Assembly: GCA_963805975.1 (NCBI GenBank)
Contig: CAWDVR010000001.1
Location: forward strand, 800,001-864,000
From: an uncultured Acidobacteriota bacterium
Lineage (GTDB): Bacteria > Acidobacteriota > Thermoanaerobaculia > Multivoradales > SZUA-115
Direction: 5' to 3'
DNA length: 64,000 nt
In this document: positions 55,070 through 63,791 of the stretch, piece by piece
Layout: every line of letters starts with the position of its first letter
Numbering within the stretch: the first letter of the stretch is position 1
The notes under the pieces: generated by a model
The model's database searches: none
Seen by the model: only the letters and a program-made list of their open reading frames with translations
What the model was told of the DNA's origin: nothing
Program-made: the position numbers and the translations under genes

Positions 55070-56382
55070 AGGGCGGCGCCTTCCTCGCCGTCGGCCTGCC
55101 GGGCAAGGTGCTGGAACCGGAGAACGCTCGGCTCCTCACCCGGCTCGAGCCCGGCGGCGTCATCCTGCTGCCGCGCAACATCGAGGACGCCGGCCAGCTC
55201 GGGGAGCTCACGGCGTCGGTCCGCCGTGTGGTACCCGAAACGCTCCTCTACCTCGACGCCGAGGGGGGGAGGGTGGACCGCCTGCGCAACGTCCTGGGCC
55301 CGGCGCCCGGCGGCGACGTGCTGGCGAGGAACCCTCCTCGCCTGGCGGCGCGCGCCGGCCGTTGGGTGGGCGCCGGCCTGCGGTGCTTCGGCTTCGACGT
55401 GGATCTCGCCCCGGTGGTGGATCTCGATCACGGCCTGGAGAGCAATGCCCTGGACCGGCGATACCTGGGAAGGGCGCCGCGCGGCGTGACCGCGCGGGCG
55501 CGGTCTTTCCTCGCCGGCCTGCACGCCGCGGGAGTGAGCGGCTGCCTCAAGCACTTTCCCGGCCTGGGCCGGGCCGGCGAGGACACCCACGACCAAGGGA
55601 CGGTGATCGCGGCGAGCGAAGCGGCCCTGGCGCTGGACCTCGAGCCCTTCCGCCGGCTGGCGGGGGAGGCGGGAGCGGTGATGGTCAACCACGCCGCCTA
55701 CCCTGCGATCGACCCCTCCGGCCTGCCGGCCAGCCTGTCGCGGGAGATCGTCTGGCACCTTCTGCGGCGCCGCACCGGCTTCCGCGGCCTCGCGCTCTCG
55801 GACGACCTCGACATGCACGCCCTCGACCCCTGGGGGAACGCCGCCGAGCGCGCCGAGGCCAGCTTCGCGGCCGGCTGCGACGTGGTCTTCCTCTGCCAGT
55901 CCCCGGACGCCGCGCTGGAGGCGGCCCGCCGGCTCGGCCGTCCCGGGCTCGAGGCGCGCCGCGAGGAGGCGACGCGCCGGCTCGCGGCCTACCGGCGGCG
56001 GCTTGCGAGGTTGCGAAAGGCGGCCAGGCGGCGACGACCCGGAAGAAGTCATCCGCCGCCTGGCTTCCTTGCAGTAGCTCAGTGCCCCGAAGTCCTGGAC
56101 CCACTCGGTTCCGGCCCGTTGAAGTCCACCCAGGCGGTACCCACGTCGTACCCCCAGTCGAGCACCCCGGAGGTGTACGAAGGCCCGAAATCCGTACCCG
56201 CCGAGACCATGCACTCGAGGCGGCTCGACACGAAGTTCTCGTCCCCCACCCGCCGGCAGAAGTCCGCCCGGTGGTCGCCGTCGAAGTCCGTCCAGGCAAA
56301 CCCTTCAGGCCGCCCCCACTCGCGCACCTCACCCCTGGCGTTGGTCGTGCCCTCAGCGAAACCTCCGCCGGTTGACAAGTAG
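55066..56382 (+). CDS. nagZ: GH3 beta-N-acetylhexosaminidase with run-on C-terminus
   Basis: DAEGGRV, APVVD, KHFPG.G....DTH, SDDLDM; homology ends near 56030 but the frame stays open into the convergent gene. Confidence 0.85.
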   Translation: MKGGAFLAVGLPGKVLEPENARLLTRLEPGGVILLPRNIEDAGQLGELTASVRRVVPETLLYLDAEGGRVDRLRNVLGPAPGGDVLARNPPRLAARAGRWVGAGLRCFGFDVDLAPVVDLDHGLESNALDRRYLGRAPRGVTARARSFLAGLHAAGVSGCLKHFPGLGRAGEDTHDQGTVIAASEAALALDLEPFRRLAGEAGAVMVNHAAYPAIDPSGLPASLSREIVWHLLRRRTGFRGLALSDDLDMHALDPWGNAAERAEASFAAGCDVVFLCQSPDAALEAARRLGRPGLEARREEATRRLAAYRRRLARLRKAARRRRPGRSHPPPGFLAVAQCPEVLDPLGSGPLKSTQAVPTSYPQSSTPEVYEGPKSVPAETMHSRRLDTKFSSPTRRQKSARWSPSKSVQANPSGRPHSRTSPLALVVPSAKPPPVDK

Positions 56383-57395
56383 CAGACGACGAGCCGTACT
56401 CCTTGCCCAATCGGCGTGCAGTAGTCCGCCCGGCCATCGGCGTTCTGATCGGCCCATGCGCCCGGAAAGTACGTGGGATTGGGTTCGATCACCCCGGAGG
56501 TGAAGGTGAGTCCGAAACCCGTGCCGGTCGAGAGGGTGCACGTTGCCCACGTCAATTGATCGCTCGAGACACTGTCCCGCCGGCAGTAGTCCGCTCGGCC
56601 GTCGGCATTGAAGTCCACCCAGCCGAAACCGATGTCGTATCCCCAGTCGATCACGTCGGAGTAGTAGCTGGGTCCGAAGCCCGTGCCCGTCGAGACCGTG
56701 CACGCGACGTAGCTCGACACATAGTTCTCATCCCCCACGCGCCGGCAGTAGTCGGCTCGGCCGTCGGCATTGAAGTCCGCCCAGCCGACACCCACGTCGT
56801 ATCCCCACTCGATCACGTCGGAGTAGTAGGTAGGTCCGAAGCCCGTGCCCGTCGAGACCGTGCACGCGACATAGCTCGACACGAAGTTCTCGTCCCCCAC
56901 TCGGCGGCAGTAGTCCGCCCGCCCATCGACATTGAAGTCCACCCAGGCGACGCCCACGTCCAGTCCCCAGTCGATCACGTCGGAATAGTAGGTGGGCCCG
57001 AAGCCCGTGCCCTTCGAGACCGTGCATGCGACATAGCTCGACACGAAGTTCTCGTCCCCCACGCGCCGGCAGTAGTCCGCCCGGCGGTCGCCGTCGAAGT
57101 CCACCCAGGCGACGCCCACGTCTTGTCCCCAGTCGATCACGTCGGAGTAGTAGGTCAGTCCGAAGCCCGTGCCCTTCGAGACCGTGCACGCGATATGGCT
57201 CGACACGAAGTTCTCGTCCCCCACCCGCCGGCAGTAGTCCGCCCTGCTGACGAGGCCCGGCTGTGCATTGGCTGCTTGCGGCGGTGCAATACCGAAGGCG
57301 AGCAGCGCTCCGAAAGCCGCGGCAGCGGCGCGAAGGATGCGTTGGCGCAGGCTGCTCCCCAGCTCGTGCGCCCCATCATGGCTCTTGATCAACAT
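56079..57395 (-). CDS. Secreted seven-repeat FG-GAP/lectin-like beta-propeller
   Basis: Seven ~54-aa units (W.DF..D.RAD(Y/F)C) at 162-165 bp spacing; signal-like N-terminus. Confidence 0.82.
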   Translation of the reverse strand: MLIKSHDGAHELGSSLRQRILRAAAAAFGALLAFGIAPPQAANAQPGLVSRADYCRRVGDENFVSSHIACTVSKGTGFGLTYYSDVIDWGQDVGVAWVDFDGDRRADYCRRVGDENFVSSYVACTVSKGTGFGPTYYSDVIDWGLDVGVAWVDFNVDGRADYCRRVGDENFVSSYVACTVSTGTGFGPTYYSDVIEWGYDVGVGWADFNADGRADYCRRVGDENYVSSYVACTVSTGTGFGPSYYSDVIDWGYDIGFGWVDFNADGRADYCRRDSVSSDQLTWATCTLSTGTGFGLTFTSGVIEPNPTYFPGAWADQNADGRADYCTPIGQGVRLVVCYLSTGGGFAEGTTNARGEVREWGRPEGFAWTDFDGDHRADFCRRVGDENFVSSRLECMVSAGTDFGPSYTSGVLDWGYDVGTAWVDFNGPEPSGSRTSGH

Positions 57396-57751
57396 GGGCT
57401 TCTCCTTTCCACAGCGTCGCAGTTGTTTGTTCTGCCCAGAGGGCACTCGTGCGGGCTCGGATCACTCTCGAGCCTTGATGAGCAACTGCCGGCAGCGGGC
57501 GCTCTATCTCACTTGGGAGCAGCCCCGGCGCTGCTCGGGGGACTCACCCTCAACACCGAGTGCACCGGATTGAGCGGCGCGCGGCGCGCTCTGTAACGAG
57601 CCGCCGCGGGTAGCGCCCAATTCGATCGTTCGACCAGCTCCCTCGAAAACGCACGGCAGAGGCCGGCGCTTTCCTGGGAGCGCGGCAACGCCAGTCTCAA
57701 ACCGGCCGCGCCCCGGCCCCGGGGCCAGCGGCGTCCGAAGGAGGTTCTTCT

Positions 57752-58318
57752 ATGTCTGGTCGAGGACAGGTTGCAGCGTCTCTCTTGGCCCTCGCCGCCC
57801 TTGCGCTGCCGGCGAGCGCTTCGACGTTCCTCGCTCTCTCCCACCAGGAGCTGGCCGCAGAGGCCGGTGCGGTGGTGGAGGCGCGGGTGATCGCCGTGCG
57901 GTCGTTCTGGAACGCGGAGCGCACTGTGATCGTGACCGAGGCGCGGCTGGCCGTGGACGACGTGGTGGCCGGCGACGCGGCGCGGGATCTGGTGGTGCGC
58001 ACCTTCGGCGGCACGGTGGCCGGCTACACCATCCAGGCGCACGGTTTCCCGACTTTCCGCACCGGCGAGCGCCAGCTTCTCTACCTGGTGCAGGAGCCGA
58101 AAGACGGCAGCGTCCGCGTGCTCGGCTACCAGCAGGGCCAGTACCGGATCGTGACCGGCGACGACGGCGTCGAGAAGGCGGTCCCGGCGGTGGGAGAGGG
58201 CGCCCGCTTCGTCACCCGCGACGGCCGGCCCGCTCCGGCCGCCGAGGTCGTGTCGCTCGCAGAGCTCAAACAACAGATCCGCGACGGCGCTCGAGGTGTC
58301 GAGCGCCCGGCGGCCTAA
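57752..58318 (+). CDS. Secreted protein upstream of matrixin protease
   Basis: AAGGAGG RBS; signal ending ASA, then STF; VRTFGGTV, GFPTF.TGE; resembles accessory domains seen beside matrixins. Confidence 0.75.
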   Translation: MSGRGQVAASLLALAALALPASASTFLALSHQELAAEAGAVVEARVIAVRSFWNAERTVIVTEARLAVDDVVAGDAARDLVVRTFGGTVAGYTIQAHGFPTFRTGERQLLYLVQEPKDGSVRVLGYQQGQYRIVTGDDGVEKAVPAVGEGARFVTRDGRPAPAAEVVSLAELKQQIRDGARGVERPAA

Positions 58319-58341
58319 GCCCCGCGGCAAGGAAGGAACCG

Positions 58342-59304
58342 ATGATGACTACGAACGCGCTCCTGCGCTCCTCCCTGGCGGCGGTGCTCGGCTTCGTCCT
58401 GGCAGCCGGCGCCTCGGCCTACGTGCTCCTGTCCCCGGCCCGCACCTGGAACGGCCCTCCCAACTACATCGTGGACAGCGGCGGCCTGGCATCCGTCCTC
58501 GACGGCAACGGTGGGCTGACTCGCACCCTCAACGCCATCACCAGCTCGGCAGCTTGGAACGGCGCCGGCTCGGCGACCGTGCTCACCGCCAGCTCCGGCT
58601 CGACCGCCGGCATCGCGCTCGGCGACGGCGTCCCCATGCTGCGCTTCAGCGACCCGTTCGCGGCCTGCACCGGCACCTGTCTCGCCGCCACCTTCACCGG
58701 CTACTACAGCCTGCGCGGCGGCACCTCCTACCAGATCGACGACGCGGACATCGTCACCAACTCGACGGGCTACAACTGGACCTCGCAGGGGGAGGACCCG
58801 GGCGGCGTGGGCTGCGCGAGCGAGATCTACGTCGAGGGTGTGATGGTGCACGAGGTCGGCCACGCGCTCGGCCTCGGCCACACCGGGGTCGCCGGCGCCA
58901 CCATGGCGTCCTCGGTGTCCTACTGCAACAACAACCCGGCGACCACCGAGGCCGACGACGAGAGCGGTCTCGTGGCCCTCTACGGCAGCGCGCCCTGCAC
59001 CGGCTGCGCGGTGTACACCAACTACCTCTCCGGTACCGGCGTGACCCACTACGAGCCGCTCAACACCTACTATTTCAGCGCCGCCGCGGGCACCCACCAG
59101 GGCTTCCTGGTCGGTCCCGCGGGCACCGACTTCGACCTCTATCTCTGGAAGTGGAACGGTTCGGCGTGGGCTGTGGTGGCGAGCGCCACCACAGCCTCGT
59201 CGACCGAGACCATCAGCTACGCCGGCACCTCGGGCTACTACCTGTTCGGCGCCTACTCCTACAGCGGCGCCGGCCAGTATCACTTCTGGCTCAAGAAGCC
59301 GTAG
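58342..59304 (+). CDS. Matrixin (M10) metalloprotease with C-terminal PPC-like domain
   Basis: HEVGHALGLGH, Met-turn ATM, DFDLYL..W, ETISY. Confidence 0.9.
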   Translation: MMTTNALLRSSLAAVLGFVLAAGASAYVLLSPARTWNGPPNYIVDSGGLASVLDGNGGLTRTLNAITSSAAWNGAGSATVLTASSGSTAGIALGDGVPMLRFSDPFAACTGTCLAATFTGYYSLRGGTSYQIDDADIVTNSTGYNWTSQGEDPGGVGCASEIYVEGVMVHEVGHALGLGHTGVAGATMASSVSYCNNNPATTEADDESGLVALYGSAPCTGCAVYTNYLSGTGVTHYEPLNTYYFSAAAGTHQGFLVGPAGTDFDLYLWKWNGSAWAVVASATTASSTETISYAGTSGYYLFGAYSYSGAGQYHFWLKKP

Positions 59305-59342: not shown

Positions 59343-61742
59343 CTACTCCAGGTATCCCAGCGCCCGCAGGGTCTCGAGCTGATCGCTCTCGATCCCGCCG
59401 GCGGCGGCGCGCGGAAACTTCTTGGCCAGTGCCAGGTGCTCGAAGAGCTGCCTTTCGAGCCGTTGACGGAAGGTCTTGGCGAGGTCGGGCCGCTCGGCCT
59501 GGAGGCTCTTCAGACAGTAGGGATCGGAGGCGAGGTCGAAGAGCAGCAGATCCTCCTCGGGCCTGCCCTCGCCGCCCACGGCCAGCGAAGCACCCCAGCT
59601 CCCGTCGATCATCTCGATCACCCCGGAGAGGCGCCCGGTCTCGGGGTCGGCCGTGAACTCGTCGATCACCACCGGGCGCCGCTCCCAACCCGGCTTGCCG
59701 AGCAGCAGGGGAGCGAGGGACTGCCCCTGTAGGTACGCCGGCTTCGGCTGGCCCGCGAGGTCGAGCACCGTGGGCAGGAGGTCGAGGAGTGACACCGGCT
59801 CCTCGAACCGGGAGCCGGGGCGGATACGGCCCGGCCAAGTGAAGACCAGCGGTACCCGCGTAAGGTAGGCGTTGAGGTAGGGGACCCGCGCTTCCGGGTC
59901 GAGGCCCGAGAGCAGGCCGAGGCCCGGCCAGTCGCCGTGATCCGCGGTGACCACGAGCAGCGTGTTCTCCCACTCGCCGCGTGCCCCGAGCTCCGCCACC
60001 AGGCGGCCGAGCTGGTGGTCGTTATGAAGGAATGCCTCGTCGTAGGCGTCGCGCGCCGCTTCGAAGTACGCACGGCGGTCCACGCCGGCGCGGGTGAAGA
60101 GGCCCGCCGGCGCGCGCAGCGCCCACGAGCGGCCGATGCCGCCGCTCGCGCCGCCGAGCTTGCGCTCCATCTCCTGGAAGCGCTCGCGAGCGTCCGTGGA
60201 GAGGAAAGTTCCGGCGGTGGGCTCCACGGCTTCCCACGGCCAATGCACGTCCGTGGTCTGGAAATGGACCCAGTACGGCTGGCCGGGGTAGGCGTCCCGC
60301 CAGCGGAAGAACTCGGCCTGGAGCGCGGCCGAGGAGGCGGAGCTCGGACCGGCCACGGTCTCGCGCAGCTCGTCCACGCCGCGCTCGAGGCTGCTCATGG
60401 TGCCGCACCAGGTGTTCGAGGTGAAGACCGCCGTCTGGTAGCCGGCGCGGTGCAGGATCTCGGCCATGGTCCCGGCCGACTCGGGCAGTGGGTCCGAAGG
60501 AGTCGCGTAGCCGCCCAGCACGCTGTGCTGCAGCGAGGTCATGAACGAGGTGGTCGAGGGCTTCGACCAGCTCGAGTTGCTGCGTGCGTTCTCGAACAGC
60601 CCACCGCGGGCGGCGAGCTTCTCGAGGTTGGGCGTGGTGGGGCGCGGGTAGCCGTAGGCGCTCGCGTACTCGGCGCCGCCGGCGTCGATCACGTAGAGGA
60701 CGACGTTCGGCGGGCGCTCCGCCGCGCGGCCCGAAAGGGTAGGCGCCGCCCACAGCGCCACGGCACCGCGGCGCTCGGCCCGGCTCTCGAGCGCGAGAGT
60801 GACGGTCCTTCCCGCCCAGCGGGCGAGGTCCACCGAGCGCTGCGCCCAGCGCTCGGTGGTCGAACAGGCCTCCTCGAAGACGGTCTCGGGTGCGCTCCTG
60901 CCGGCGCCGACCTCGACCCGGAAGGTGACCGGTGCATCCGCGCGCAGCACGCCGAGGCCGAGATCGAGCCGGGCGCCCTCCGGCAGGCGCACGCGGTACT
61001 CGAGGCGCGAGGGAGCGTGAGTGAAGAGCGTTCGCCGGTGGAGCTGGTCGCGCGGCTCGGTGACCACGCCGGCCGGAGCGCCGGCAAAGCGGGCTTCCTT
61101 GGGGACGAGCTCCACGGAGAGCAGCTCGACGCTCGCCGGTGCCGGCGAGGTGAGCACCAGGGCGAGCTCCGTCCAGGGGTCTGAGCCCTCAACGGAGTCG
61201 GTCCAGTCGGCGCGCAGCAGGTAGCGGTGCGTTGCGCCGGCGGCCAGCAGGTCCACGGCCTCCCCGCGGAGCAGGAAGGGCTCGTGGTCGAACACCATCT
61301 CGCCGGCCTGCCGGCGGCGGTTGAACCATGCCGTCAGGCGCGCGTCTCGAGTGCTGGCCCGCGCCTCGACGACGATGGATGCCCAGTCCTCGCGGTTCCA
61401 GCCCGGCAGCTCGACGAAGGCGCCGCCGTAGAGGCCCCGGCGGGCGCGGTGAGCCTCGGTCAGCGAGATGCGGAGCGCGCCGTTCTGCTGCGACACCAGG
61501 GCCGGAGCGCGGCCCGGGTCCAGGGGCTGGGCGGCCTTCCAGGCTGGTTGCTCGACGTCGAAGGCCCAGATCTTGGGCGCCGGAAGGTCCGCCGGTACGG
61601 CTGAGCCCTCCAGCCGGGCGGAGCCCCAATGCTCTTCGAGATGCAGTGGAAGGTCCGCGGTGAGGGGCGCCGGACCCGGCTGCGGGCAGGCGGCGAGGAA
61701 AACCACCGCGACGGCGAGACCGAGGCGTCGTAGGGCTGGCAT
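59343..61742 (-). CDS. Sulfatase-like lipoprotein
   Basis: LAAC lipobox; PNVVLYVID, TTPNL, WSKPS, DVHWP, TADHG, LETLRALGYLE tail. Confidence 0.85.
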   Translation of the reverse strand: MPALRRLGLAVAVVFLAACPQPGPAPLTADLPLHLEEHWGSARLEGSAVPADLPAPKIWAFDVEQPAWKAAQPLDPGRAPALVSQQNGALRISLTEAHRARRGLYGGAFVELPGWNREDWASIVVEARASTRDARLTAWFNRRRQAGEMVFDHEPFLLRGEAVDLLAAGATHRYLLRADWTDSVEGSDPWTELALVLTSPAPASVELLSVELVPKEARFAGAPAGVVTEPRDQLHRRTLFTHAPSRLEYRVRLPEGARLDLGLGVLRADAPVTFRVEVGAGRSAPETVFEEACSTTERWAQRSVDLARWAGRTVTLALESRAERRGAVALWAAPTLSGRAAERPPNVVLYVIDAGGAEYASAYGYPRPTTPNLEKLAARGGLFENARSNSSWSKPSTTSFMTSLQHSVLGGYATPSDPLPESAGTMAEILHRAGYQTAVFTSNTWCGTMSSLERGVDELRETVAGPSSASSAALQAEFFRWRDAYPGQPYWVHFQTTDVHWPWEAVEPTAGTFLSTDARERFQEMERKLGGASGGIGRSWALRAPAGLFTRAGVDRRAYFEAARDAYDEAFLHNDHQLGRLVAELGARGEWENTLLVVTADHGDWPGLGLLSGLDPEARVPYLNAYLTRVPLVFTWPGRIRPGSRFEEPVSLLDLLPTVLDLAGQPKPAYLQGQSLAPLLLGKPGWERRPVVIDEFTADPETGRLSGVIEMIDGSWGASLAVGGEGRPEEDLLLFDLASDPYCLKSLQAERPDLAKTFRQRLERQLFEHLALAKKFPRAAAGGIESDQLETLRALGYLE

Positions 61743-61932
61743 GGGAAGCGAAGCCTATCCTTCGCACCCTCGAGCCGGTGAAGCAAGCATCAGCCTCGAT
61801 ACGTGATGAGGCCCGTTGCCACTACCAAGAAGAAGCCGATGCTGTCTCGATAGCGCAGGTGTCCGAGCCACGCCAGCGCCATCAGGCAGCTCGCCAAGAA
61901 CATACACACAGGGACCACGACTGCCTTCATCT

Positions 61933-62856
61933 CTAAATTCTCCGGCCCGCCAGGTGAGCGTCGAGCCAGTCGAGCGCCGCTGCGTCGACGTCGAGATCGA
62001 ACTTGCGCGCGAAGTAGTAGCTGCTGGCGACGAGGGCGGGGCAGTCGGCGTAGGTGAGGATTCGCGGGTGGCCGTTGCGGTCGCCCTGGAAATCGACGAA
62101 GCGCAGGTTGTCGTTGAACAGGCGAAAGCTGCCGTCGTTGATCAGTACGGTTTGGGCGAAGGCCTCGTCAGGGCATACCGTGCGCTCGAAGTGGACCACC
62201 ATTTTGCCGCGGCTACGGGCCGTTGCGAGGAGCTGCTCGGCGCAGCTACGGCGGAGGGTCGTCCATTGCGATCCGACGAAAGGAGCCTGCCCTGCTGCCG
62301 CGCCGGGGAATCGCGCCCGGATTCCCAGCCGTGGCCCATAGGTGAGATGGACGTTGAAGCCGTTCTGGAGCTTGTTGAGCGGGCGCACGAAGCGCAGCGC
62401 CGCCTCCCACCCGGGCAGCTCGAAATAGCGGTACAGGTAGCGCACGCGCCCCTGCCGCCGGCGGCCATCGGGGCTCCGTGCGTCCATCGGCCTCCAGGTG
62501 AGGTAACCGTCGTAGTCGGTCGCGGCGAGCACCGTTTCGAGCTCGGCCAGCGGCCGAATCGGATAGTCCTGGCCGGACAGGTACACCAACCACTGGTAAT
62601 CGCCAAGCTGGTGAGAGAGTAGCTCTACGGCGTCGAAGTAGGGCTCGAGCAGCGACCAGTAACCGCGGTGACATTGTTGGCGATGGGAAAAATGCACCAC
62701 GCCGAGGGCGTCGAGCACGGCGGCGTTCAGAGGCTCGCCGGCCAGGCAGTGCCCAACCACCAGGAGCGCATCGGGGCTGCCGCGGCGGAGGGCGCCGAGG
62801 AGGCGCTCGACCTGACGCGGGCTGCGATGACTCTGCACGAAGTAGGCGACGCGCAC
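61933..62856 (-). CDS. Core-2/I-branching (GT14-like) glycosyltransferase
   Basis: AYFVQSH, LSGQDYPI, GSQW, PDE.F.QT, NDNLR, FARKFD. Confidence 0.88.
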   Translation of the reverse strand: MRVAYFVQSHRSPRQVERLLGALRRGSPDALLVVGHCLAGEPLNAAVLDALGVVHFSHRQQCHRGYWSLLEPYFDAVELLSHQLGDYQWLVYLSGQDYPIRPLAELETVLAATDYDGYLTWRPMDARSPDGRRRQGRVRYLYRYFELPGWEAALRFVRPLNKLQNGFNVHLTYGPRLGIRARFPGAAAGQAPFVGSQWTTLRRSCAEQLLATARSRGKMVVHFERTVCPDEAFAQTVLINDGSFRLFNDNLRFVDFQGDRNGHPRILTYADCPALVASSYYFARKFDLDVDAAALDWLDAHLAGRRI

Positions 62857-62883: not shown

Positions 62884-63594
62884 TCAGCCGCCGGGAGCGG
62901 GTGTCGTGCTCGGAGGTGCAGCAGAGTCGGGCGCGCCTGCGCCACGGCTGTGCTCCGCGAGCCAGGCCTCCACCTCCTCGGGATGGAAGCCGAAGGGGCC
63001 CGGCTCGCCCTTGTAGGCGATCCGGCCGTCCGCGCCGATGATGTAGAAGCGCTCCGGCCAGCCCGCGTAGAGCTTCTCCACCTGATTGTCGATGTCGTCG
63101 ACGCCGAAGGGCAGGGTGTAGTCGAAGCGCTTCACGAAGTCGTTGGCGATGACCAGGCGGTCGGCCAGGGTCTTGGGTTGGCGGTAGCACACGTCCTCCT
63201 TCTCGTTGGAGGTCATCTGCCACTCGTCGAGCGGATGGGCTTCCTTGATGTAGACGGTGAGGAAGCTCGCCGTGTCCCGATACTTCGCTTGCATCTCTTC
63301 CAGGCGCTCGACCGAGCGCCGGAAGGGCGGTCAGGTGAAGCTGCCGAAGACCAGCACCAGCGGCTGAGTGCCGATCCGATCGGCCAGGCGCACGGTCGCT
63401 TCGCCGTCGAGGGCCCTGAGCACGCCGTCCGGCGCCAGGTCCCCGACCTTGAGGTCTCCCTCCCGGCGCTGGTCGTAGAGCAGCATGCCGATGACGTTGC
63501 GCGGGCCGATCTTCATCACCATGTAGCCGGCCGCGAGGAGCACCAGCCCCAGCACGGAGAGCAGGATCCGCTTGGCGAGAACGACTTTCCTCAT
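62884..63594 (-). CDS. Iodothyronine deiodinase-like selenoprotein (UGA read as Sec, codon 88)
   Basis: One frame reads PLVLVFGSFT-TGA-PPFRRS...VYIKEAHP.DEW...YAGWPER; TGA at 63333-63331; GGAGG RBS; N-terminal TM segment. Confidence 0.9.
63297..63325 (-). promoter_or_regulatory. Putative bacterial SECIS element
   Basis: CUUCC-GGCGCUC-[GGUC]-GAGCGCC-U-GGAAG hairpin; G-initial loop begins after 17 nt following the UGA. Confidence 0.8.
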
Positions 63595-63791
63595 GCCACC
63601 TCCCGGGTCGTCGGGCGAGCGTAGAGCCTCGCCGCCGCGGGTGCAAGATGCCGACCAGCGGCAGCATTGCCGGAGCGCCGGGATCTTGCCCTGCATCGGC
63701 CTTGCAGGAGGCCGTGTGATCCGCGAACGCTCATAGAACCCATGCATCGGCTGCGGTCGCCGCCACCGGCCGGGCGAGATAAAGTCTGCGC

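What the first reader, a model, noticed from the sequence alone, without database searches (positions are those of the whole stretch)
62884..63594. Hidden selenoprotein: bacterial deiodinase-like gene with UGA-Sec and SECIS
Seen: two ORF-track fragments are in one frame, separated only by a TGA in FGSFT*PPF, and a strong hairpin with a GGUC loop follows. Known: animal iodothyronine deiodinases have FGSCT-U-PSF/PPF and YIEEAH motifs, and bacterial SECIS elements lie just 3' of the UGA. Inference: a 236-aa membrane-anchored Sec enzyme, possibly a dehalogenase or redox enzyme, that pipelines would split. Bacterial deiodinase-like selenoproteins have been predicted before, but I know of no defined substrate.
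Basis: partly seen in the sequence, partly recalled or inferred. Interest (0 to 1): 0.75.

Follow-up and report, generated by a model that had tools for sequence, protein, structure and literature searches.

The report
Bacterial deiodinase-like selenoprotein gene
This is one gene whose internal stop codon very likely encodes selenocysteine, giving a predicted membrane-anchored bacterial relative of the animal thyroid-hormone deiodinases; the family has been known since 2005, and what it acts on is still untested.

Summary
Confirmed, on the minus strand (63594-62884). Reading TGA 63333-63331 as Sec gives a 236-aa PF00837 protein whose Sec88 aligns with the catalytic Sec of mouse Dio3/Dio2. The genome has selA, selB, selD, tRNA-Sec and a Sec-type formate dehydrogenase with a similar hairpin. 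All 80 closest genome loci keep TGA. The GGUC hairpin meets the bacterial SECIS model, covaries, and has the two most frozen wobble positions. A nested Cys-codon clade has lost the stem. Public gene calls cut the gene in two.

The family is known (2005), and this scan found it twice before on other DNA. One feature I did not find in print: this subfamily lacks both resolving cysteines of Dio3 and the UxxC motif that reviews list. It has an invariant Cys136 in the deiodinase loop (154 of 154 close TGA loci), lost in the Cys-codon clade (one event) but also missing in 17 distant Sec forms. Deiodinase-type halogen removal (0.4) and general thiol redox (0.35) cannot be told apart; there are no conserved neighbour genes. 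New member of a known kind.

The parts
62884..63594 (-). Deiodinase-like selenoprotein CDS, 236 aa with U88
   Evidence: PF00837 E 1.5e-35; Dio3 4tr3 E 2.3e-22
63599..63603 (-). GGAGG Shine-Dalgarno-like site, 4 nt before the ATG
   Evidence: sequence; function inferred
63517..63567 (-). Hydrophobic helix, residues 10-26; predicted membrane anchor (or signal peptide), N-in/C-out inferred
   Evidence: hydropathy 2.5; 4 K/R before and 2 after; helix 2-29 in the model
63331..63333 (-). In-frame TGA = Sec88, aligned with Dio3 Sec170
   Evidence: 80 of 80 homologous loci TGA
63297..63325 (-). Bacterial SECIS: upper stem 63320-63314 with 63309-63303, GGUC loop 63313-63310; lower stem poorly conserved
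63181..63240 (-). Deiodinase omega-loop (residues 119-138) after the invariant Y115/E118, with H120 and W125
   Evidence: alignment to Dio3 loop-D (PMC7506546 passages); conservation
63187..63189 (-). Cys136 (TGC), the only cysteine; candidate resolving cysteine
   Evidence: 80 of 80, 74 of 74 TGA loci and 0 of 5 Cys-codon loci; absent in 17 distant TGA forms
63055..63057 (-). Pro180, aligned with the Pro of a thioredoxin GVPETF motif; Phe258 in Dio3
   Evidence: 80 of 80; 151 of 153 distant domains

Best explanation
One gene with an in-frame TGA and a conserved downstream hairpin very likely makes a 236-aa selenoprotein of the deiodinase family, predicted to be anchored in the membrane with its catalytic domain outside the cytoplasm, which would work like animal deiodinases: Sec88 would pull a halogen off a small haloaromatic molecule held by the deiodinase loop, and Cys136 would then resolve the oxidised selenium. 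Shown: frame, TGA conservation, hairpin covariation, Sec machinery, family, conserved residues. Predicted: fold. Inferred: SelB-dependent Sec insertion (about 0.97), outward topology (about 0.7), a Sec88-Cys136 selenenyl-sulfide recharged by a DsbD/thioredoxin-type donor (about 0.45), haloaromatic substrate (about 0.4). Thyroxine itself is unlikely to be the substrate.
For: Decoding: selA 534 bits, selB 356, selD 255, all over cut-off; tRNA-Sec(UCA) 71 bits. TGA in 80 of 80 loci, 74 of 80 in a sister set, 47 of 50 class genomes with the family. The six-pair stem is 94.9% paired with 38 both-side changes, 0 of 500 shuffles reaching it. Wobble positions of codons 94 and 95 are the least variable of 75 fourfold columns (entropy 0.10 against a median of 1.17). 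In the sister set the stem sits one codon further: 65 of 74 TGA loci have 5-6 of 6 pairs, 0 of 5 Cys-codon loci do. The genome's formate dehydrogenase has TGA plus a GGUCU-loop hairpin. Chemistry: model pLDDT 91.7; best Foldseek hits are Dio3 (E 4.8e-15, rmsd 1.9) and Dio2. Equivalents of Dio3 Ser167, Thr169, Tyr197, Glu200, His202, Trp207, Gln218, Glu259, Arg260, Gly276 and Pro277 are invariant in 80 of 80, Arg225 in 79 of 80; Ser167, Thr169 and Glu200 mutants lose activity in Dio3 (PMC7506546 passages). Cys136 is in all 154 TGA loci of the two close sets and all 111 split C-terminal fragments among 120 protein hits. Topology: more positive charge before the helix in 49 of 70 proteins, equal in 15, after it in 6; 11 set aside.
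Against: No expression, Se labelling or activity data. Dio3 Cys168, His219, Cys239, Phe258 and Arg275 are not kept (F86, P140, no Cys, P180, P198). 120 of 153 more distant family domains have Cys rather than Sec at the site, which fits general redox better, as Cys is poorer at halogen abstraction (my knowledge). After the two Dios the closest folds are ResA/TlpA/DsbE thiol-disulfide oxidoreductases. No neighbouring halogen or aromatic pathway recurs. Cys136: 17 of 20 more distant TGA forms lack it; three protein records have Cys at both sites (P0003, P0017, P0126; DNA not seen); its loss with Sec is one event; the Sec88-Cys136 distance could not be measured. The covariation counts rest on few events: the C-G to G-C swap is one clade of 18 rows, the U-A to G-C swap needs 2-3 changes. 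The lower stem is poorly kept. selA is in 199 of 201 class genomes and DsbD in 10 of 14 control genomes, so their presence discriminates little.
Confidence: 0.4

Rival explanations
1. The same selenoprotein is a general envelope thiol-redox enzyme (ResA/TlpA- or peroxiredoxin-like) that reduces peroxides, reactive halogen species or oxidised protein thiols, with Sec88 and Cys136 as the redox pair.
For: Membrane anchor and thioredoxin-type Pro180; ResA/TlpA/DsbE and Prx folds rank next after the Dios; sub-threshold Redoxin and AhpC-TSA matches; mostly Cys at the site in distant members; a plant GPx carries its resolving Cys in the neighbouring alphaD helix (PMC7506546 passage); PMC1088965 suggested a redox role; no pathway neighbours.
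Against: The deiodinase-specific loop and its Tyr/Glu/His/Trp/Gln network are invariant, which a generic oxidoreductase does not need; no CxxC or UxxC (F at +3 in 80 of 80; no Cys at +3 in any domain); the genome already has 9 AhpC-TSA matches over cut-off (10 matches).
Confidence: 0.35
2. A real selenoenzyme with a deiodinase-type pocket but another small-molecule substrate (for example a sulfoxide, N-oxide or quinone), or with Cys136 serving a structural or protective role only.
For: Substrate-contact residues of Dio3 (Arg275, Phe258, Asp211, His219) differ; distant Sec forms lack any Cys in the loop; distant Cys members are fused to EF-hand, TPR or CMD domains.
Against: No positive evidence for any such substrate; Cys136 is strictly kept in the subfamily.
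Confidence: 0.22
3. The TGA is a nonsense mutation, or the two halves are separate genes.
For: Gene callers list two ORFs; a 136-aa C-terminal product is on record on a contig of the same length as C1.
Against: The same TGA at the catalytic residue in 80 of 80 and 74 of 80 loci, both halves conserved, the hairpin conserved and covarying; the break would cut the fold at its active site.
Confidence: 0.02
4. TGA is reassigned to Trp or Gly genome-wide.
For: Some protein records show W at the site (P0006, P0008, P0022); one metagenome locus has TGG (L161).
Against: TGA ends mutS, prs, selD and this gene (4 of 11 genes checked); the only UCA-anticodon tRNA is tRNA-Sec; the position is Cys or Sec in the family.
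Confidence: 0.01

Closest known systems
Bacterial deiodinase-like (DI-like) selenoproteins, Pfam PF00837 (PMC1088965; listed in PMC9312934 and PMC13188914)
   Same: PF00837 over cut-off, UGA at the catalytic site, bacterial SECIS, both Sec and Cys forms, function untested.
   Different: The two reviews give the motif as UxxC; here it is S-F/Y-T-U-P-P-F with a loop cysteine (Cys136). Hosts are named mostly as Acidobacteriota/Thermoanaerobaculia; I found no paper on these.
Animal iodothyronine deiodinases Dio1-3 (PDB 4tr3, 9h48)
   Same: Fold (rmsd 1.9 over 173 columns, 34% identity), N-terminal membrane helix, omega-loop, Ser/Thr/Tyr/Glu/His/Trp network.
   Different: No Cys168 or Cys239; His219, Phe258 and Arg275 are each Pro; the SECIS is in the coding region. 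The catalytic domain is predicted to face outward (animal Dio1 and Dio2 face the cytosol, recalled).
NCBIfam NF038285 deiodinase_rel
   Same: E 1e-60 over model positions 177-339.
   Different: 206 bits is below the 250 cut-off; the first half of the 347-position model is not matched.
ResA/TlpA/DsbE membrane-anchored thioredoxins and atypical 2-Cys peroxiredoxins
   Same: Thioredoxin fold with N-terminal extension, anchor, Pro at the thioredoxin position.
   Different: No CxxC; has the deiodinase insertion; 13-25% identity, E about 1e-9.

Membership tests
Bacterial selenoprotein gene | In-frame UGA at a conserved position that is Cys in homologues | tested here: met
Bacterial selenoprotein gene | [quoted passage not shown] | tested here: met
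   GGUC loop, 7 bp, 17 nt, -15.9 kcal/mol; covariation. Checked by hand; the bSECISearch program was not run.
Bacterial selenoprotein gene | selA, selB, selC, selD in the genome | tested here: met
Bacterial selenoprotein gene | Selenium incorporated in the product | not testable with these tools
   needs 75Se labelling or mass spectrometry
Deiodinase-like family (PF00837) | Profile match over cut-off and Trx fold with the deiodinase insertion | tested here: met
   123 bits against 27
DI-like selenoprotein as tabulated in reviews | UxxC motif | tested here: not met
   UPPF in 80 of 80; no Cys at +3. The motif comes from the review tables, not from the profile.
NF038285 deiodinase_rel | Score of at least 250 bits | tested here: not met
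   206.1 bits
Iodothyronine deiodinase (Dio1/Dio3 type) | Cys at -2 (SCTU) and distal Cys239 | tested here: not met
   F/Y at -2; no Cys at the Cys239 column
Iodothyronine deiodinase (Dio1/Dio3 type) | Ser167/Thr169/Tyr197/Glu200/His202/Trp207 network | tested here: met
   80 of 80 each
Iodothyronine deiodinase (Dio1/Dio3 type) | His219 and Arg275 | tested here: not met
   Pro140 in 80 of 80; Pro/Thr at 198, with Lys next to it in 50 of 80
Iodothyronine deiodinase (Dio1/Dio3 type) | Reductive deiodination activity; homodimer | not testable with these tools
   no assay; no dimer prediction was obtained
ResA/TlpA thiol-disulfide oxidoreductases | CxxC or UxxC active site | tested here: not met
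   UPPF; NF002854 24.5 bits against a cut-off of 170

The most novel reading that the evidence does not exclude
A widespread Acidobacteriota subfamily of outward-facing selenium dehalogenases that strip iodine or bromine from natural haloaromatics and recycle through a cysteine placed in the deiodinase loop (Sec88-Cys136), a recycling route unlike that of any animal deiodinase. It would be the first bacterial deiodinase-family enzyme with a substrate and a model for where thyroid-hormone chemistry came from.
Probability: 0.25. Interest if true: 0.7.

Novelty: new member of a known kind. Interest (0 to 1): 0.32.

Why it matters
It corrects a systematic mis-annotation: 111 of the 120 best protein hits are C-terminal fragments without the active site, and the family is in 50 of 201 sampled genomes of this class. 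It gives a compact, single-cysteine candidate for testing the question left open since 2005, what bacterial deiodinase-like proteins do. It is also a clean case of a coding-region SECIS steering amino-acid change (SVER, AVAR, SVDR, SVGR; EVGY, EIGN in the sister clade).

Tried and rejected
Conserved neighbourhood: none. Among ORF clusters from 80 loci plus the window's own, the recurring ones are unrelated families (protein kinase, PKD, Nramp, two-component, peptidases) or have no Pfam match (40 representatives scanned). The window's own neighbours recur as a block only in the closest relative L022, which lacks the glycosyltransferase and sulfatase genes; across 190 loci the glycosyltransferase had no hit and the sulfatase one weak hit. 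An operon link to those two genes is therefore rejected. Promoter scan found 0 sites; the one terminator-like site lies inside the next gene and is at chance level. RNA runs: no RNA holder listed. A loose SECIS test of my own was non-specific (73 of 74 TGA but also 4 of 5 Cys-codon loci passed) and my first shifted-stem count was mis-indexed; both were replaced. A TGA-plus-hairpin scan of the genome was too unspecific to list a selenoproteome. A second structural alignment and a dimer prediction were not obtained, so dimer state and the Sec88-Cys136 distance remain open. Literature searches for a characterised bacterial member: only PMC1088965; 0; 0; reviews and surveys; the library lacks most subscription papers and no supplements were read, so survey tables may already list these genes.

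Full report
Observation. The feature is on the minus strand. From ATG 63594 the frame runs 87 codons to a TGA (63333-63331) in FGSFT*PPF and then 148 codons to a TGA stop at 62886-62884. With TGA read as Sec it gives 236 aa. A GGAGG lies 4 nt upstream. The ORF finder lists the halves separately. A 136-aa C-terminal product is on record on a contig of the same length as C1, so public gene calling splits it.

Family. Pfam PF00837 matches residues 44-213 (123 bits, cut-off 27). NCBIfam NF038285 matches at 206 bits, below its 250 cut-off. Among solved structures the sequence matches are mouse Dio3 (E 2.3e-22), Dio2 (6e-20) and a thioredoxin-family protein (7e-5), with residue 88 on the catalytic Sec position. 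An AlphaFold model from a 75-row alignment has pLDDT 91.7. Foldseek ranks Dio3 and Dio2 first and ResA/TlpA/DsbE proteins next. PF00837 has one match in this genome.

Sec machinery. selA, selB (model positions 1-579 of 581) and selD score over cut-off, and a tRNA-Sec with UCA anticodon is at C5:605469. TGA is an ordinary stop here (4 of 11 genes checked). A formate dehydrogenase alpha-type gene has TGA in CNRT*HAP, followed by a hairpin with a GGUCU loop one base further from the UGA than ours, an internal positive control.

Homologues. A genome scan found 166 relatives and kept the best 80, titled mostly Thermoanaerobaculia or Acidobacteriota; all 80 have TGA at the site. In 201 genomes of the window's class, 50 have PF00837 and 47 of those matches contain one TGA; the other three have Ser or Cys codons. 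selA is found in 199 of the 201, and the two misses are not among the 50; because selA is nearly universal there, this co-occurrence says little. In 301 phylum genomes, 37 match the protein at E 1e-10 or better. These tallies include unpublished genomes (G004 and G178; also G174; G004); without G004 and G178 reads 48 of 199 and 45 of 48. Of the 120 listed protein hits, 111 lack the active-site motif. The wider family is large (3,200 clusters at E 1e-10 or better), and among the 153 domains of the 150 listed representatives 120 have Cys at the site.

SECIS. The hairpin meets the four constraints of the bacterial model quoted in PMC13188914 (passages; fold). Its stability alone is modest. Across 79 distinct sequences the six apical pairs are 94.9% paired, with 38 both-side changes, and no shuffle or slid control reaches that. 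The lower stem is weak (72.4% over all 12 pairs). The swaps change amino acids in pairs (SVER, SVDR, AVAR, SVGR). On a tree they are few events: one clade of 18 for C-G to G-C, 2-3 changes for U-A to G-C. The third bases of codons 94 and 95 are the two least variable of 75 fourfold columns. A metagenome scan with a Cys-form query (326 relatives, best 80 kept) gave 74 TGA, 5 Cys-codon and 1 TGG loci. There the stem sits one codon further out: 65 of 74 TGA loci have 5-6 of 6 pairs and no Cys-codon locus has more than 3. The Cys forms are one well-supported clade nested among TGA forms in a FastTree tree of 74 rows (14 of the first 80 and 20 of the 74 TGA loci sampled at random): one Sec-to-Cys change with loss of the stem.

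Active site. Dio3 numbering follows the alignment and passages of PMC7506546, PMC12025243 and PMC11592359. Kept in 80 of 80: Ser167, Thr169, Tyr197, Glu200, His202, Trp207, Gln218, Glu259, Arg260, Gly276, Pro277; Arg225 in 79 of 80. Not kept: both proposed resolving cysteines (Cys168 is Phe/Tyr; Cys239 absent), His219 (Pro140), Arg275 (Pro198) and Phe258 (Pro180, which aligns with the Pro of a thioredoxin GVPETF motif; that this is the thioredoxin cis-proline is my knowledge). The only cysteine, Cys136, aligns with Val215 at the neck of the loop that borders the Dio3 active site. It is present in 80 of 80, 74 of 74, 29 of 29 class loci (overlapping the first set) and 111 of 111 fragments, and absent in the Cys-codon clade. 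Against a general rule: 17 of 20 TGA forms among 25 more distant loci lack it, and three protein records have both cysteines. So Cys136 marks a subfamily, and its resolving role is a hypothesis.

Topology and context. A hydrophobic helix lies at residues 10-26. Charge bias favours N-in/C-out in 49 of 70 scorable proteins, which would put the catalytic domain in the periplasm; a cleavable signal peptide was not tested. A DsbD transmembrane-domain gene exists. No neighbour family is shared across the subfamily.

How it most likely works. SelB-GTP-Sec-tRNA binds the GGUC hairpin and decodes UGA 88 (established pathway, inferred here). The selenolate attacks an electrophilic atom of a small substrate held by the loop, Cys136 closes a selenenyl-sulfide, and an external reductant reopens it (all inferred). 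The invariant deiodinase network tips me slightly toward halogen removal from a haloaromatic (0.4) over general thiol or peroxide redox (0.35); other substrates 0.22; non-Sec readings 0.03.

What is known. PMC1088965 (passages) reported Sec and Cys deiodinase-like proteins with bacterial SECIS in 2005 and suggested a redox role. PMC9312934 and PMC13188914 (passages) list the family with motif UxxC and functions largely untested. Preprint 10.1101/314781 (one passage; supplements closed) notes DI-like selenoproteins in fungi, protists, invertebrates and bacteria. PMC12013277 has no mention of deiodinase in its main text. Searches showed no characterised bacterial member and nothing on a loop cysteine; subscription papers and supplements were not seen. 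Two earlier reports of this scan on other genomes reached the same family verdict.

Verdict. Real and well supported, a new member of a known kind. Interest 0.32, carried by the open function and the testable Sec88-Cys136 pair.

Noticed in passing
G000:C2:810250-812148 (L139), TGA at 810499: Formate dehydrogenase alpha-type gene with in-frame TGA (CNRT*HAP) and a GGUCU-loop hairpin: a second likely selenoprotein of this genome.
   Followed up: partly
G000:C5:432085-433011 and upstream (L010): SelD is a Cys form (CGGCAAK) fused behind a long N-terminal domain that looks like an FAD-dependent oxidoreductase (domain label from my reading, not scanned).
   Followed up: partly
window 59343-62856 (-): A Core-2/I-branching glycosyltransferase (PF02485) and a 799-aa sulfatase-domain gene follow the selenoprotein gene; both are missing from the otherwise syntenic relative L022, so they look inserted here or lost there.
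   Followed up: partly
window 56079-57446 (-): Protein with a signal-like start and about seven near-identical FG-GAP-like repeats of about 52 aa.
   Followed up: no
window 57752-59304 (+): 188-aa secreted-looking protein with no Pfam match, followed by an M10 metalloprotease; the protease is 84% identical in L022.
   Followed up: no
L161:3001-3689: Member of the Cys clade with TGG (Trp) at the catalytic site, probably inactive or a sequencing error.
   Followed up: no
L132 (G125), P0124, P0127: Ser at the catalytic position (FGSYTSP) in anchored family members: possible non-redox paralogues.
   Followed up: no
P0123, P0129, P0133, P0137, P0139, P0140, P0141, P0160, P0223: Distant members are tandem two-domain forms with a degenerate second site, or are fused to EF-hand, TPR, CMD or ceramidase-like domains.
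   Followed up: partly
homologue alignment, residues 30-46: A highly conserved stretch just after the membrane helix (G30, G36, Y40, R43, G46 invariant in 80 of 80) outside the Pfam match; may be a dimer or partner surface.
   Followed up: no
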